A stretch of 64,000 bases of DNA from Candidatus Margulisiibacteriota bacterium. GTDB taxonomy: Bacteria > Margulisbacteria > WOR-1 > O2-12-FULL-45-9 > XYB2-FULL-48-7. The translations under genes and the position numbers were made by a program. The stretch is from assembly GCA_018822365.1 (NCBI GenBank), contig JAHJKL010000061.1, positions 13,242 through 77,241 of the forward strand. The letters are read 5' to 3'. Shown here piece after piece: positions 26,825 through 30,471 of this stretch. Below the pieces are notes generated by a model that saw only the letters and a list, made by a program, of their open reading frames with translations, made no database searches and had not been told where the DNA came from. Numbering within the stretch: the first letter of the stretch is position 1; each line of letters starts with the position of its first letter.

Positions 26825-27586
26825 CTATTGAACAGCTTCAATGATGATGTAAGGGGTTCCCATTCCGCTTTCTAATCCTTCATAGCGGAGAAAGTCGTGT
26901 GGCTTCTCTTTGGTGAACCAAAAATATGTTTTAGGTACGAAGGCGCCGAAAATGTTCAAAGCCCCAAGGTCCGGGATCATCTGGATCTTGTGGGCGGCTA
27001 TCTCTTTGCCGTTGATTGTGACCGGCTCTTCACCAATATACTTAATGGTCATCGGATAGATCTTGGGTTCGTTGGTCAGCAGGTGGAAAATGAGGTCCCG
27101 TTTTTCTTTGAAGGGATAGTTGGCCAGGGCAAGTCCAAGCAATTCTTTGTCTATTAGGTCGCCTTGCAGATCATAAAGTGTTTCTTTGTTGTTTTCGCGG
27201 AAAAGGACCTTTTTTTGCGCCAGGTCAAATGACTTTTCGATCGTTTCCAGAATTTTGCCATCAGGCGACTTGTAAACCAGCTTGCCCTGATAGGGGATCA
27301 CGCTTGTTTTGTCGTGAATATAATAGGCGCGCGAACTCCAGCTTTTCTCTTTGTGGTCTTGCCCGTATATACCGGAACCATCTTCGGTAATATAAATAAA
27401 ATCTTTCCCCTTATCGGAAAGCCTAGCAACTTTAATTGTCGCGCGCCAGAGGAGCTTGCCGCTTGCTTTGTCTCTGGCCTGGTTCTTTTTTGTTTCTAGG
27501 AGGAGATTTTTATATTCAAAGAGTTCCGCTCCAGCCGCGGCCGACAGCCACAAAAAAAGCATTAACAGCGTGGCTAATATTTTCAT
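26825..27586 (-). CDS. secreted hypothetical protein (DUF3108-like)
   Basis: Signal peptide followed by a predicted beta-rich fold. Weak resemblance to DUF3108. Confidence 0.35.
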   Translation of the reverse strand: MKILATLLMLFLWLSAAAGAELFEYKNLLLETKKNQARDKASGKLLWRATIKVARLSDKGKDFIYITEDGSGIYGQDHKEKSWSSRAYYIHDKTSVIPYQGKLVYKSPDGKILETIEKSFDLAQKKVLFRENNKETLYDLQGDLIDKELLGLALANYPFKEKRDLIFHLLTNEPKIYPMTIKYIGEEPVTINGKEIAAHKIQMIPDLGALNIFGAFVPKTYFWFTKEKPHDFLRYEGLESGMGTPYIIIEAVQ

Positions 27587-30471
27587 TAAGCCTCGCTTTT
27601 TTTCGGTCGGCCCCGTTTCGGTTTATACTCGATTTTAAGGGCTGGTTCGAGCCTGGTGTTTTCCGTTTTTGTCGATTCCGGTTTAGGTTTTTCGACCCGC
27701 CCTTCCCCTTTTTCAAAAAAGATCTTGTCGTCTTTAACATCCGCTTTGACAATATCCCCTTCCTTGAACCTGCCGGCGATCAACTCATTGGAAAGCGGGT
27801 TTTCCAGTAGATGCTGGACTGCCCGCCGGAGCGGTCTGGCCCCATATTTTGGATCAAAACCGTCTTTGATAACGCGCTCTTTGACCGCTTCGGTGATTTC
27901 CAGTTTTAGGCCCCGATCGGTGACCTGTTTTTGCATGTCAGAGATCAGGATCCCCGCGATCTGCTTAAGCTCATTTTCGGTCAGCGGGTGGAAGACAATT
28001 ATCTCGTCGATCCGGTTGAGAAACTCAGGCCTAAACTCCTTTTTCATGTCCCCCAGAACAGTGTCGCGCATTTTTTCGTACGAGGCCTCCCTGTCTTCCC
28101 GCGGCAGAAAGCCGATCGCTCCCTGCTGGACGATCTCTTTTTGGCCGATATTGGAGGTCATAATGATGACCGTGTTCTTGAAGTCGACCACGTGACCTTT
28201 GGAATCGGTCAATCGGCCGTCATCTAAGATCTGCAGAAGGACGTTGAAGACATCCGGATGGGCTTTTTCTATTTCATCAAAGAGGATAACGGAATACGGC
28301 TTGCGGCGGACCGCTTCGGTCAGAGTCCCGCCTTCGTCGTAACCGACATATCCGGGAGGGGCGCCGACCAGACGGGAAACGGTATGCTTTTCCATGTATT
28401 CGGACATATCGACCCGGATCAGCGCGTCCTGGGTGCCGAAGAGGAATTCTGCCAGACGCCGGGCGACCTCGGTTTTTCCCACCCCGGTTGGGCCGGCAAA
28501 AATAAATGAGCCGACCGGGCGTTGCGGCGGCTTGAGGCCTGCCCGACCCCTGCGAATAGCCTGGGAAATAGCGACGACCGCTTCGTCCTGGCCGATGATC
28601 CGCTTGTGAAGTTCCGATTCCATCTGGATCAGCTTTTCGGTTTCGGCGGCGGTCAATTTAATGACCGGGATCCCGGTCCAGTCGGAAACGATGCTGGCGA
28701 TATCATCCTCGGTCACGGTCGCTTCGGAGCCATGTTCCTGCTTCCATTTGGCGGTCAGCTCTTTGGCCTCTTTTTCCAGGGCGCTGATCTTGTCGCGCGC
28801 GGCGGCCGCTTTTTCGTACTGCTGGGAGGTCAGGGCCGCTTCTTTTTCCCGTTTAAGCTCTTCCATTTGTTTCTGGACTTTCTTTAATTCCGGCGAGCTG
28901 GTGAAGATCCGGAGACGGACTTTGGCGGCTGCTTCGTCCATGACGTCGATCGCTTTGTCGGGGAGGAATCGGTCGGAAATATAGCGATCGGCCAGGGTGG
29001 CGGCGGCGACCAGTGCGGCGTCGGGGATCTTGACCTGATGGTGCTGTTCGTAGCGTTCCCTAAGCCCCTGCAGGATCTGGATCGCCAGGTCAACCGAAGG
29101 TTCATTTATCAAGACCGGTTGGAAACGGCGCTCAAGGGCCGGGTCTTTTTCAATGTTTTTGCGGTATTCATCAACGGTGGTCGCGCCGATCATCTGAAGC
29201 TCGCCGCGGGCCAGGGCCGGCTTGAGCATGTTGCCGGCATCGATCGCTCCTTCGGCTCCGCCGGCTCCGACCAGTGTGTGTAGTTCGTCAATAAAAAGAA
29301 TGACCTGCCGTTTCTTGGCCAGGATCTCGTCCAGGACTTTTTTGACGCGGGACTCAAATTCACCCCTGTATTTGGTGCCGGCGACCATTCCGCCAAGGTC
29401 AAGTGAGATCACGGTCTTGTCGCGCAGGATATCGGGGACCTCTCCTTTGACGATCCGTTCCGCCAATCCTTCGACGATCGCGGTTTTACCGACACCAGGA
29501 TCACCAAGAAGAGCGGGATTGTTTTTTGTCCGGCGGGAGAGGATCCTAATGATCCTTTCGATCTCCTTTTCGCGGTCGATGACCGGATCAAGTTCGCCTT
29601 TTTTGGCCATCGCGGTCAGGTCGCGGCCAAAGGTCGTAAGCGCTGGCTTTGATGGCCGGGGCGGCCCGCCGATCCCTAGTCCAGGAAAGCCAAACATCCC
29701 TTCCGGTCCACCGCCCAGATTTTCGGACAATTCCGGCGGGAGCTCTTCCTCTTCATCTCTTCCCTCCCCTTCAAGTTCTCCCGTTTCTTCGGGGATTTTC
29801 CCCTGGGTCCTTTCTGCTTCCGCTATGATCTCTTTGGCGATCTTATCAAAGGTTATTTTTCGTTTATGAAGAGCCTGGGCGGCCAGGCTTTCTCCTTCCC
29901 GGATTATCCCAAGCAGAAAATGTTCTTCGCCGACGTAATTGAAGCCAAGCTCCCGGGCCGCCTGGTAGGCGTAATCAAGGGTTTTTTTGGCTCTGGGAGA
30001 TAGAACCAATTTTTTTGGGGCTCCTTCGCCTCGTCCAATGAGCGACTCCAGGTCGGAGAAAAGGTTGACCATGTCTACGCCTAGTTTTTGCAAGACCTTG
30101 GAGGCGAGGCCTTCCGCTTTGATCAGGGCAAGAAGCAGGTGTTCGGTCCGGACATGGTCGTGGCCAAGGCGCTGGGCCTCTTCAGTGGCGAGTTGCAGCG
30201 CCCGGTTGGCCGAATCGGCAAAATATTCAAAGAACCGCTCGGTTGGCCGCCGCTTCAGCAGAGAGGCAAAGATATCCGGGAACTCAAAAAATCCGGGTAT
30301 TTCCGGGAAGCCAAAGTCCCCCAGGTCGCCAAGGTTTCCTCCTCCCATGGTCGGCAGGAGCCCTTCCTGAGCGGCGCATTCGCTGCAGAGGTGGTAGGTG
30401 GCTTTTTTGTTGTTGACGATCTTGGTAATGTGAACGGTAGCTGGTCTAACCTTGCATTTTTGGCATAACAT
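27586..30471 (-). CDS. clpC: ATP-dependent Clp protease ATP-binding subunit ClpC with N-terminal McsA-like zinc-ribbon module and C-terminal AT-hook
   Basis: The N-terminus ([33 protein letters not shown]) resembles McsA. The rest has two Clp N repeats, an acidic Gly-rich linker, D1 and D2 AAA+ modules (two GxxGxGKT), a UVR middle domain and a C-terminal KPKRGRPKK. Confidence 0.9.

What the first reader, a model, noticed from the sequence alone, without database searches (positions are those of the whole stretch)
27586..30471. McsA-ClpC fusion with an expanded acidic/Gly linker and a C-terminal AT-hook; no McsB nearby
ClpC here is 961 aa. Its first ~35 residues resemble the start of McsA ([33 protein letters not shown] versus B. 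subtilis McsA MICQECNERPATFHFTKVVNGEKIEVHICEQCA). In Firmicutes McsA is a separate protein that activates the arginine kinase McsB, and no mcsB or ctsR is present here. A ~60-aa acidic, Gly-rich insert ([20 protein letters not shown]…GGPPRP) separates the N-domain from D1. The protein ends in [12 protein letters not shown], a textbook AT-hook DNA-binding motif, which suggests nucleoid-tethered ClpC or direct DNA binding. This is an unusual domain architecture for a core unfoldase.
Basis: partly seen in the sequence, partly recalled or inferred. Interest (0 to 1): 0.6.

Follow-up and report, generated by a model that had tools for sequence, protein, structure and literature searches.

The report
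ClpC unfoldase with built-in zinc targeting domain
This is the heat-shock ClpC protein-unfolding motor of a Margulisbacteria genome; throughout that phylum it carries a small zinc domain shared with McsA, ClpE and the disaggregase ClpG, so it is a new variant of a known machine and not a true McsA fusion.

Summary
The ORF 27586-30471 (-) encodes 961 aa. It has a four-Cys ribbon at residues 1-36, a roughly 50-aa acidic/Gly/Pro insert before D1, and the ending [12 protein letters not shown].

The core is ClpC:
- two intact AAA+ rings
- Clp_N repeats
- a short UVR-type M-domain
- an invariant (I/V)GF ClpP-docking loop

The N-terminal ~76 residues match only the Z1 part of McsA plus the aromatic motif that follows it. 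The McsB-binding Z2-L3 part is missing. No mcsB or ctsR was found in 383 kb of Margulisbacteria clpC loci.

The same zinc domain heads ClpE and is the aggregate-binding N1 domain of ClpG/ClpK, which was the top Foldseek hit. The architecture, N1 / Clp_N / D1 / M / D2 / C-terminal extension, is therefore ClpG-like on a ClpP-coupled ClpC chassis. It is conserved in all 46 Margulisiibacteriota/Saganbacteria species loci found.

The strict RGRP AT-hook occurs in only 3 of 112 homologues. The family-wide trait is a Lys-rich tail.

An HspR-like repressor gene and a HAIR-like operator lie directly upstream.

Most likely function: an adaptor-independent, heat-induced ClpCP unfoldase that targets misfolded or aggregated proteins. 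The function of the tail is unresolved.

The parts
27586..30471 (-). clpC-type gene, 961 aa including the stop codon
   Evidence: The ORF is listed. Pfam finds Clp_N, AAA, AAA_lid_9, UVR, AAA_2 and ClpB_D2-small. The best solved-structure match is B. subtilis ClpC at 985 bits. The protein is 100% identical to P0001 from a Candidatus Margulisiibacteriota MAG.
30364..30471 (-). N1/Z1-type zinc ribbon, residues 1-36 (C3, C6, C29, C32)
   Evidence: It matches the NCBIfam McsA model at E=1.1e-15. The family profile hits PDB McsA at 2.6e-13, ClpE at 1.9e-6 and ClpG/ClpK N1 (8p66) at 0.14. AF2 gives pLDDT 75-91 with strand, strand, helix. The top Foldseek PDB hit is the ClpG N1 structure 8p66 with probability 1.00. 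The Cys ligands and the hydrophobic positions 15 and 19 are conserved in 108-112 of 112 homologues.
30244..30315 (-). Conserved aromatic motif [22 protein letters not shown], residues 53-76, in a predicted disordered stretch
   Evidence: P65, D66 and F68 are invariant in 112 homologues. pLDDT is below 50. McsA and ClpE have a similar motif after their zinc ribbon.
29806..30234 (-). Clp_N N-terminal domain, residues 80-222
   Evidence: Pfam Clp_N E=4e-23. PDB ClpC N-domains match at E~1e-33. pLDDT is 85-96. E32, K85 and E106 equivalents are kept. T7 is A/S, R9 is S, and T105 is E here (P in the family consensus).
29704..29805 (-). Variable acidic/Gly/Pro linker, residues 223-256
   Evidence: It holds 12 D/E, 7 G and 4 P. 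In the family its length is 10-47 aa and its net charge -2 to -17, mean -7.7. pLDDT is about 30.
29617..29703 (-). Second conserved motif (E/G)[21 protein letters not shown], residues 257-285, leading into D1
   Evidence: P263 and A277 are invariant, and G261, G264 and K275 nearly so. It is predicted disordered. It is absent from the Firmicute ClpC and from ClpK.
28912..29604 (-). AAA+ module D1, residues 290-520 (Walker A GDPGVGKT, Walker B FIDELH, pore loop KYRGE)
   Evidence: Pfam AAA and AAA_lid_9. The motif residues are invariant.
28702..28911 (-). Short single-wing M-domain with a UVR motif, residues 521-590
   Evidence: Pfam UVR at 534-568. AF2 helices span 527-579. The ClpC F436 equivalent is Y.
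27697..28659 (-). AAA+ module D2 plus the D2-small domain, residues 605-925
   Evidence: Pfam AAA_2 E=5e-72 and ClpB_D2-small E=2e-24.
28108..28119 (-). ClpP-docking loop AIGF, residues 785-788
   Evidence: G787 and F788 are invariant in 112 of 112 homologues. The loop aligns with GLGF of a Firmicute ClpC and is deleted in ClpK.
27589..27696 (-). Disordered basic C-terminal tail, residues 926-961
   Evidence: It holds 11 K/R in 36 aa. pLDDT is 33-41. Every family member has a Lys-rich end: mean 5.7 K/R in the last 10 residues, and at least 5 in 89 of 112.
27598..27624 (-). AT-hook-like core KPKRGRPKK, residues 950-958
   Evidence: Read directly from the sequence. RGRP occurs in only 3 of 112 homologues and [KR]GR[PK][KR] in 14 of 112. 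There is no Pfam hit.
30544..30840 (-). HspR-like MerR-family repressor gene, 98 aa, directly upstream on the same strand
   Evidence: Pfam MerR_1 E=1.5e-17. NCBIfam HspR E=1e-21, below the curated cutoff. It sits upstream of clpC in 15 of 46 related loci.
30879..30909 (-). Promoter TTGACA-17-TATACT overlapped by the inverted repeat CTTGACA-N7-TGTCAAG, a HAIR-like operator
   Evidence: Found. It is conserved upstream of hspR in related loci. The HAIR consensus is CTTGAGT-N7-ACTCAAG (PMC6102357).
26825..27586 (-). Downstream DUF3108-like gene with a signal peptide; its start overlaps the clpC stop by one base
   Evidence: It is conserved only in the closest relative, L002, so it is probably not functionally linked.

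Best explanation
The gene encodes the Margulisiibacteriota form of ClpC: a two-ring AAA+ unfoldase that docks on ClpP through an (I/V)GF loop.

Instead of relying on a separate McsA/McsB or MecA adaptor, it carries its own N-terminal targeting module. That module is a Zn(Cys4) domain of the ClpG-N1 / McsA-Z1 / ClpE type, followed by a conserved aromatic motif. In ClpG this domain binds hydrophobic patches on protein aggregates, and several copies per hexamer act together by avidity.

The proposed steps are:
1. After heat stress lifts HspR repression, the hspR-clpC operon is induced.
2. Six N1 domains, held on long flexible acidic/Gly/Pro linkers, capture misfolded or aggregated proteins.
3. 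Substrate engagement of N1 and Clp_N relieves the repressed resting state.
4. The polypeptide is threaded into ClpP.

The Lys-rich C-terminal tail, here containing an RGRP AT-hook-like core, is a lineage-specific polycationic extension. It most likely binds a polyanion such as DNA or RNA, but its role is not established.

Shown here: domain composition, homologies, conservation across the phylum, the ClpP loop, the absence of mcsB and ctsR nearby, and the HspR gene with its operator.

Inferred: aggregate targeting, ClpP coupling in vivo, heat induction, and the function of the tail.
For: ClpC identity:
- The best solved-structure match is B. subtilis ClpC at 985 bits, against 812 for ClpB.
- The protein is 53% identical to a Firmicute ClpC and 44% to ClpK.
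- The best plasmid-collection hits are Firmicute ClpC at about 58%.
- The GF of the ClpP loop is invariant in 112 of 112 homologues, and the loop is deleted in ClpK.
- Walker and pore-loop residues are invariant.

N1/Z1 identity:
- NCBIfam McsA E=1.1e-15.
- The family profile hits McsA at 2.6e-13, ClpE at 1.9e-6 and the ClpG N1 structure at 0.14.
- The AF2 model of residues 1-78 finds ClpG N1 (8p66) as the top hit among 350,542 PDB chains, with probability 1.00.
- The predicted secondary structure, strand, strand, helix, matches the beta-sheet plus helix described for N1.
- The positions equivalent to the aggregate-binding V17 and L21 of ClpG are I/V and V/I/L/M in about 110 of 112 homologues.
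- PMC10641755 shows that N1 binds aggregates and states that the ClpE and McsA N-termini are homologous to it.
- PMC8024975 shows that N1 fused to ClpB makes an autonomous disaggregase.

Phylum-wide conservation:
- The 120 best homologues are all Margulis/WOR-1/Saganbacteria proteins.
- All 46 species-representative loci are fused; the 39 complete ORFs are 907-964 aa with two Walker A motifs.

No arginine-kinase partner nearby:
- McsB is in 0 of 47 and CtsR in 0 of 47 Margulis sequences, against 33 of 34 and 31 of 34 Bacillota loci.

Heat-shock control:
- The hspR-like gene and the conserved CTTGACA-N7-TGTCAAG operator overlap the -35 box.
Against: - No experiment exists on any member of this family.
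- The link to ClpG N1 is weak by itself (profile E=0.14, Foldseek E=0.086). It leans on the stronger McsA and ClpE links and on published homology statements.
- Aggregate binding has been demonstrated only for ClpG N1, not for McsA Z1 or the ClpE domain.
- clpP is not in the window, and I could not scan the genome for clpP, clpB, mecA or mcsB.
- The two strongly conserved disordered motifs (residues 53-76 and 257-285) have no assigned role in this model.
- The tail's function is a guess.
Confidence: 0.6

Rival explanations
1. True McsA function. The fused N-terminus recruits or activates a McsB arginine kinase encoded elsewhere, so the protein is a kinase-activator/unfoldase fusion serving the phospho-arginine degradation pathway.
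For: There is significant homology to the McsA N-terminus. The phospho-arginine pocket residues T31/E32 and E106 of the ClpC N-domain are retained.
Against: - Only Z1 is present. The whole protein has four Cys, and its McsA model score is 57.9 against a cutoff of 210.
- McsB binding and activation reside in Z2-L3, and Z1 is dispensable for binding (PMC11046695).
- McsB and CtsR are absent from 383 kb around Margulis clpC genes, but adjacent in 33 of 34 and 31 of 34 Bacillota loci.
- Pocket residues T7, R9 and T105 are changed.
- That paper reports McsA/McsB homologues only in Gram-positives, some Proteobacteria and rarely archaea.
Confidence: 0.06
2. The zinc ribbon is a regulatory element and not a substrate binder. 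It could be a thiol/redox switch (zinc release on oxidation), or an assembly element that docks on the UVR coiled-coil M-domain to control the resting-state/hexamer equilibrium.
For: - McsA zinc sites have been proposed as oxidative-stress sensors.
- In McsA, Z1 and the UVR-type coiled coil are both required for higher-order oligomers.
- The Z1 domain co-occurs with a UVR coiled coil in McsA, in ClpE and in this protein.
- ClpG N1 and N2 also repress ATPase activity.
- Resting-state contacts are kept: K85 and an aromatic residue at the F436 position, with the D356 equivalent E here and D in the family consensus.
Against: There is no direct evidence. The AF2 monomer shows the ribbon as a separate folded unit followed by a disordered segment, but the tool gives no contact information. 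This role is compatible with substrate binding, so it may be an additional function and not an alternative one.
Confidence: 0.2
3. Nucleoid-tethered ClpC. The C-terminal AT-hook binds the minor groove of AT-rich DNA and places the unfoldase on the chromosome, for example to remove DNA-bound proteins such as its own repressor HspR.
For: - The RGRPKK core is flanked by basic residues and is reproduced in two other assemblies.
- RGR-containing basic ends recur in several subclades: 14 of 112 homologues have [KR]GR[PK][KR].
- Every homologue has a Lys-rich disordered tail, while other proteins in the window do not.
- RGR and AT-hook-like motifs bind the minor groove in HMGA, Lsr2 and H-NS (my own knowledge, not checked here).
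Against: - Strict RGRP occurs in only 3 of 112 homologues, all at least 90% identical, so it is effectively one evolutionary event.
- There is no Pfam AT-hook hit.
- A poly-Lys tail could equally bind RNA, polyphosphate, acidic lipids or ClpP, or act as a solubility tag.
Confidence: 0.2
4. A stand-alone, ClpP-independent disaggregase, that is, a functional ClpG/ClpK equivalent that refolds and does not degrade.
For: The domain order is the same as in ClpG (N1, N2, AAA1, short M, AAA2, C-terminal extension). NCBIfam ClpK and ClpG score 841 and 827 bits over nearly the full length.
Against: - The scores are far below the 1900-bit cutoffs.
- The ClpP-docking GF loop is invariant here and deleted in ClpK.
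- The protein is closer to ClpC than to ClpK, 53% against 44%.
- The C-terminal extension is basic here and acidic/Pro-rich in ClpK.
Confidence: 0.1

Closest known systems
ClpC (Bacillus subtilis / Staphylococcus aureus ClpC, Mycobacterium ClpC1)
   Same: Clp_N N-domain, two AAA+ rings, a single-wing UVR M-domain and a ClpP-docking (V/L/I)GF loop. Identity is 53-58% over residues ~77-922.
   Different: - An extra 76-aa N-terminal zinc domain plus motif.
- About 50 aa of acidic/Gly/Pro insert with a conserved FGFPG motif before D1.
- A Lys-rich C-terminal tail.
- No ctsR-mcsA-mcsB operon context; the gene is HspR-linked instead.
ClpG / ClpK stand-alone disaggregases (Pseudomonas, Klebsiella tLST/LHR islands)
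   Same: The same order of modules: a zinc-binding N1 domain, Clp_N (N2), AAA1, a short M-domain, AAA2 and a C-terminal extension. Both have an F-rich stretch after N1. The N1 fold is the top structural hit.
   Different: ClpG/ClpK lacks the ClpP loop and its C-terminal extension is acidic. Identity is only 44%, and the protein scores far below the NCBIfam ClpK/ClpG cutoffs.
McsA (protein-arginine kinase activator)
   Same: The Z1 zinc ribbon and the hydrophobic motif that follows it, roughly the first 60-75 residues, are homologous.
   Different: There is no Z2, no L3 and no McsA-type coiled coil, and no McsB partner nearby. Z1 is not the McsB-binding part.
ClpE (Firmicutes)
   Same: An N-terminal zinc ribbon of the same family, plus the following motif, fused directly to a ClpC-like ClpP-dependent double-ring ATPase (for literature).
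   Different: In ClpE the N-terminal zinc ribbon stands in place of the Clp_N domain (own knowledge; not scanned here). Here the zinc ribbon sits in front of a complete Clp_N domain.
HspR/HAIR heat-shock regulon (Streptomyces clpB, dnaK; Helicobacter)
   Same: A MerR-type HspR-like repressor gene, and a 7-N7-7 inverted repeat whose outer CTTGA/TCAAG arms overlap the promoter of a Clp/Hsp100 gene.
   Different: The inner two bases of each arm differ (CTTGACA against CTTGAGT). The regulated Hsp100 is a ClpC-type gene and not clpB. The HspR profile score is below the curated cutoff.

Membership tests
ClpC (class I Clp/Hsp100, ClpP-coupled) | Two AAA+ modules with intact Walker A/B motifs and pore loops | tested here: met
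   Pfam finds AAA and AAA_2. [23 protein letters not shown] and GYVG are invariant in the 60-sequence alignment.
ClpC (class I Clp/Hsp100, ClpP-coupled) | Clp_N double-repeat N-domain | tested here: met
   Pfam Clp_N matches in two stretches at E=4e-23. PDB ClpC N-domains match at E~1e-33.
ClpC (class I Clp/Hsp100, ClpP-coupled) | Short single-wing coiled-coil M-domain (UVR-like) | tested here: met
   Pfam UVR at 534-568. AF2 helices at 527-548 and 552-579. It aligns without a gap to the ClpC M-domain.
ClpC (class I Clp/Hsp100, ClpP-coupled) | ClpP-docking (L/I/V)-G-(F/L) loop in D2 | tested here: met
   AIGF at residues 785-788. G787 and F788 are invariant in 112 of 112 homologues. The loop aligns to GLGF of a Firmicute ClpC and is absent in ClpK.
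ClpC (class I Clp/Hsp100, ClpP-coupled) | Physical and functional coupling to ClpP | not testable with these tools
   clpP is not in the window. This needs biochemistry.
McsA | First zinc-coordination domain Z1 | tested here: met
   NCBIfam NF053706 matches residues 1-42 to model positions 1-42 at E=1.1e-15. PDB 8wtb_B matches at E=3.9e-8 with the single sequence and 2.6e-13 with the profile.
McsA | Second zinc domain Z2 plus loop L3, which bind and activate the McsB kinase domain | tested here: not met
   The whole protein has only four Cys, all in Z1. The score is 57.9 against a cutoff of 210. Stand-alone McsAs have four CxxC motifs. The role of Z2-L3 is taken from PMC11046695.
McsA | Adjacent mcsB (ctsR-mcsA-mcsB-clpC operon) | tested here: not met
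   McsB and CtsR give 0 of 47 tblastn hits in the Margulis loci and window, against 33 of 34 and 31 of 34 in Bacillota loci. The rest of the genome was not searched.
ClpG/ClpK | N1 zinc-coordinating aggregate-binding domain | tested here: inconclusive
   The profile hits 8p66_B at E=0.14 with aligned C/C/C/(C|H) ligands and hydrophobic residues at the V17 and L21 equivalents. Foldseek ranks it first at E=0.086, probability 1.00, TM 0.55. Aggregate binding itself was not tested.
ClpG/ClpK | No ClpP-interaction loop (stand-alone disaggregase) | tested here: not met
   The loop is present and invariant here and deleted in ClpK.
ClpG/ClpK | NCBIfam ClpK/ClpG curated score | tested here: not met
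   841 and 827 bits against cutoffs of 1900.
ClpE | Zinc ribbon followed directly by D1, with no Clp_N domain | tested here: not met
   Homology of the ribbon and motif is supported (E=1.9e-6), but a complete Clp_N domain is present.
AT-hook DNA-binding motif | R-G-R-P core flanked by K/R | tested here: met
   KPKRGRPKK at residues 950-958.
AT-hook DNA-binding motif | Recognised by a profile and conserved among orthologues | tested here: not met
   No Pfam family matches the tail at E<=10, though short motifs may be filtered out. RGRP occurs in 3 of 112 homologues.
AT-hook DNA-binding motif | Binds the minor groove of AT-rich DNA | not testable with these tools
   Needs EMSA or NMR.
HspR/HAIR regulon | HspR-type MerR repressor | tested here: inconclusive
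   NF047375 scores E=1e-21 at 76.7 bits, below the cutoff of 105. MerR_1 is clearly met.
HspR/HAIR regulon | HAIR-like inverted repeat (7-N7-7) at the promoter | tested here: met
   CTTGACA-CTGTTTG-TGTCAAG overlaps the -35 box. Related versions are present upstream of hspR in the other loci. The consensus comes from PMC6102357.

The most novel reading that the evidence does not exclude
Margulisbacteria have collapsed adaptor and unfoldase into one polypeptide. The McsA-Z1/ClpG-N1 module gives ClpCP adaptor-free recognition of aggregates. The polybasic, AT-hook-like tail puts the protease on DNA, where it removes its own repressor HspR. Together these would form a self-contained heat-shock circuit. 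By Rosetta-stone logic, the fusion would also imply that the so far unexplained Z1 region of McsA works by engaging ClpC or substrates, not McsB.
Probability: 0.1. Interest if true: 0.7.

Novelty: new variant of a known kind. Interest (0 to 1): 0.45.

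Why it matters
- It is a natural N1-ClpC hybrid. The Mogk laboratory showed that grafting ClpG N1 onto ClpB creates an autonomous disaggregase. Here evolution has placed the same kind of domain on a ClpP-coupled ClpC across a whole phylum, which predicts an adaptor-free protease that degrades aggregates.
- It gives a handle on McsA Z1 and the ClpE zinc finger, whose functions are unclear. The region that travels as a unit is the zinc ribbon plus the following aromatic motif.
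- It shows how a lineage without the CtsR/McsAB system wires ClpC into an HspR regulon.
- It is not a new kind of machine. All functional statements are inferences from homology.

Tried and rejected
1. Representative-library search with the N-terminal profile. It returned only short McsA-like proteins and fragments. Full-length family members are hidden because clusters at 50% identity merge them with ordinary ClpC, so the search could not map the fusion outside the phylum.

2. Charge compensation between the acidic linker and the basic tail. Spearman rho is +0.27, the wrong sign for pairing, so I dropped the idea of an electrostatic linker-tail clamp.

3. 'Lys-rich tails are a general trait of this genome.' Other ORFs in the window do not have such disordered tails.

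4. Pfam scans of the linker and the tail. Nothing was found.

5. Pfam identity of the ribbon. There are only sub-threshold DUF7685 hits for this protein, McsA and ClpE, and a sub-threshold DUF7455 hit for ClpK. No named family exists.

6. Whether the HTH gene upstream of clpK is an HspR homologue. It is not (blastp E=2.9).

7. Regex scan for McsB and ClpP signatures in the window. None were found.

8. AF2 of the full-length monomer. It is informative only on order and disorder. The tool returns no contacts, so docking of the ribbon or the motifs on the N-domain or M-domain could not be assessed.

9. Shorter 'ClpC' entries in the hit list (854-871 aa, P0061 and P0075). They begin inside motif 1, so they look like late start-codon calls and not a ribbon-less paralogue (compare L014).

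Full report
OBSERVATION

The protein contains exactly four cysteines, C3, C6, C29 and C32. It is 100% identical to a protein of a Candidatus Margulisiibacteriota MAG (GCA_043812375.1, contig JBDRME010000002.1).

THE CORE IS ClpC

- Pfam finds Clp_N (twice), AAA, AAA_lid_9, a UVR motif at 534-568, AAA_2 and ClpB_D2-small.
- Against all PDB sequences the best match is B. subtilis ClpC at 985 bits, ahead of ClpC1 and ClpB.
- The isolated N-domain matches ClpC N-domains at E~1e-33.
- In the plasmid collection the best tblastn hits are Firmicute ClpC at about 58% identity.
- In a three-way alignment the protein is 53% identical to a Firmicute ClpC and 44% to Klebsiella ClpK.
- It has the D2 loop QGAIGF where ClpC has QGGLGF, and ClpK has a deletion there. 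This is the tripeptide loop that docks Clp ATPases on ClpP, which ClpK lacks (PMC2976762).
- G787 and F788 are invariant in 112 homologues, as are the Walker and pore-loop residues.

THE N-TERMINUS

Homology to McsA is significant:
- The NCBIfam McsA model matches residues 1-42 at E=1.1e-15, but with 57.9 bits against a family cutoff of 210.
- B. subtilis McsA (8wtb_B) matches at E=3.9e-8 with the single sequence.
- It matches at 2.6e-13 with a profile of 40 family N-termini.

McsA, however, is built of Z1, Z2, loop L3 and a coiled coil. Z2-L3 binds and activates the McsB kinase domain. Z1 is flexible, protease-sensitive and dispensable for McsB binding, and it contributes, together with the coiled coil, only to higher-order assembly (PMC11046695). 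The window protein has Z1 only.

The homology runs beyond the ribbon. The strongly conserved motif [18 protein letters not shown] (P65, D66 and F68 invariant) has a counterpart after Z1 in stand-alone McsAs, for example FSFEPQFSLHNLLGSLL. There, tblastn and profile alignments extend to query residue ~65-74. ClpE shows the same thing, with profile positions 1-65 aligned to ClpE 1-66 at E=1.9e-6.

LINK TO ClpG/ClpK N1

- The profile also hits the NMR structure of the ClpG/ClpK N1 domain (8p66_B) at E=0.14. The zinc ligands are aligned, and hydrophobic residues sit at the positions of V17 and L21. These positions are I/V and V/I/L/M in about 110 of 112 homologues.
- An AF2 model of residues 1-78 gives a confident strand-strand-helix unit with pLDDT 78-91 for residues 1-40.
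- Foldseek against 350,542 PDB chains ranks 8p66 first, with probability 1.00, E=0.086 and TM 0.55.
- PMC10641755 shows that N1 is a zinc-dependent domain that targets ClpG to aggregates through V17 and L21, with at least four copies per hexamer needed. It states that the ClpE and McsA N-termini are homologous.
- PMC8024975 gives the ClpG architecture as N1, N2 (Clp_N), AAA1, a short M-domain, AAA2 and a C-terminal extension. It shows that N1 transplanted onto ClpB yields an autonomous disaggregase.

The window protein has the same module order, but on a ClpC core with a ClpP loop.

DISTRIBUTION

- The 120 best database homologues (63-91% identity, 854-986 aa) that carry a source name are named Margulis/WOR-1/Saganbacteria or simply 'bacterium', and 112 of the 120 have the ribbon. 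The shorter entries start inside motif 1 and look like late start calls.
- A scan of one genome per GTDB species with the N-terminal profile returned 80 loci.
  - 46 are from Margulisiibacteriota/Saganbacteria/WOR-1. One of these is labelled Omnitrophota and a few are unlabelled. All are fused. The 39 complete ORFs are 907-964 aa with two Walker A motifs and a Lys-rich end.
  - 34 are from Bacillota. All are stand-alone McsAs of 164-182 aa with four CxxC motifs, and the two inspected (L053, L072) sit in ctsR-mcsA-mcsB-clpC operons.
- tblastn with a Firmicute McsB and CtsR gives 0 of 47 hits in the Margulis sequences (383 kb including the window), against 33 of 34 and 31 of 34 in the Bacillota loci.
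- The scan patterns were family-specific, so fusions with divergent ribbons in other phyla cannot be excluded.
- The representative-library search could not help, because clustering at 50% identity hides the family among ordinary ClpCs.

LINKER AND MOTIFS

- Relative to ClpC and ClpK there is an insert of about 50 aa between the N-domain and D1.
- Its first part is variable in sequence and length (10-47 aa) but always acidic, with net charge -2 to -17 and a mean of -7.7.
- Its last part, [21 protein letters not shown], is nearly invariant.
- AF2 of the full-length protein (mean pLDDT 69) predicts residues 40-78, 225-290 and 930-961 as disordered, while the ribbon and the N-domain are confident.
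- The two conserved FGFPG-type motifs are therefore short linear motifs in flexible segments. Their partner is unknown. Candidates are the hydrophobic groove of the N-domain, the N1 patch, the M-domain, or an external factor.
- Several ClpC resting-state contacts described in PMC12583610 are retained: K85, an acidic residue at D356 (E in this protein, D in the family consensus), and an aromatic residue at the F436 position. T7 (A here, S in the family consensus), R9 (S) and T105 (E here, P in the family consensus) of the phospho-arginine pockets are changed, and E32 and E106 are kept.

TAIL

- KPKRGRPKK is a textbook AT-hook core, and it is reproduced in two independent assemblies (L002 and L003).
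- RGRP occurs in only 3 of 112 homologues, all at least 90% identical to the window protein. [KR]GR[PK][KR] occurs in 14 of 112, spread over a few subclades.
- What is universal is a disordered tail of 5-52 aa ending in a Lys cluster: mean 5.7 K/R in the last ten residues, and at least 5 in 89 of 112.
- It is not a genome-wide habit.
- It is unlike the acidic/Pro-rich C-terminal extension of ClpK.
- Linker and tail charges do not compensate each other (rho +0.27).
- Binding of a polyanion (DNA, RNA or polyphosphate) is the most natural reading, but it is untested.

REGULATION

- Directly upstream on the same strand lies a 98-aa MerR-family gene. Its best curated matches are the HspR models (E=1e-21 to 4e-22, below cutoff).
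- Its promoter, TTGACA-17-TATACT, is overlapped by the perfect inverted repeat CTTGACA-N7-TGTCAAG.
- This has the geometry and the outer arms of the HAIR operator CTTGAGT-N7-ACTCAAG, through which Streptomyces HspR controls dnaK and clpB (PMC6102357).
- hspR sits upstream of clpC in 15 of 46 related loci, and a CCTTGACA-N7-T(G/T)xxAAGG-TTTATAAT element recurs upstream of hspR in the 14 of those loci examined.

CONCLUSION

This is the phylum-typical ClpC of Margulisbacteria. It is a ClpP-coupled unfoldase carrying an N1/Z1-type zinc targeting domain, a long flexible acidic linker with two conserved linear motifs, and a polybasic tail, and it is probably under HspR heat-shock control.

It is not a functional McsA fusion. 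It is best seen as a ClpC/ClpG hybrid architecture. I found no description of it in the searchable literature.

The mechanism is inferred from homology and not shown: adaptor-free capture of misfolded or aggregated proteins by several N1 domains, followed by threading into ClpP.

Noticed in passing
window 5557-10065 (+): A low-GC island (GC 0.37-0.43 against about 0.50) sits next to the ATP synthase operon. It holds a small ORF overlapping a PIN-domain gene (a VapBC-like pair), a 423-aa HupF/HypC N-terminal domain fused to a radical SAM domain (an unusual fusion), a HipA_C-like kinase and a HIRAN-domain protein. It is probably a horizontally acquired toxin-antitoxin or defence islet.
   Followed up: partly
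window 30879-30909 (-), and the regions upstream of hspR in L003, L010, L011, L017-L020, L022, L024, L028, L031, L033, L039: A conserved operator-like element, CCTTGACA-N7-TGTCAAGG, is fused to the -10 box TTTATAAT. Several loci show an extra TGTCAAGGTT-like half-site just downstream. This would define a Margulisbacteria HspR box.
   Followed up: partly
Subclade of homologues: P0033, P0047, P0055; loci L022, L024, L025, L048: In these, the ribbon reads CxVCGxPATVH...LCxxHA, with His in place of the fourth Cys and a short N-terminal extension. This is nearly the ClpG/ClpK N1 pattern (CQVCGQPATV...LCDDHY) and bridges the McsA-like and ClpG-like versions of the domain.
   Followed up: partly
Representative-library hits P0174 and P0177: Proteins of 262-269 aa with two tandem copies of the Z1-type ribbon. 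This is another architecture of the same domain with no known function.
   Followed up: no
window 26825-27586 (-): The start codon of a DUF3108-like gene with a signal peptide overlaps the clpC stop codon by one base, which suggests translational coupling. It is conserved only in the closest relative, L002.
   Followed up: partly
L082 (Klebsiella plasmid NZ_MK181633.1, clpK locus): ClpK also has an F-rich acidic stretch (LEALFGSRSGLFEDFLGSDFF) after its N1 core, reminiscent of the FEFPDIF motif here. This suggests the ribbon plus an aromatic motif is the conserved unit in all four protein families.
   Followed up: no
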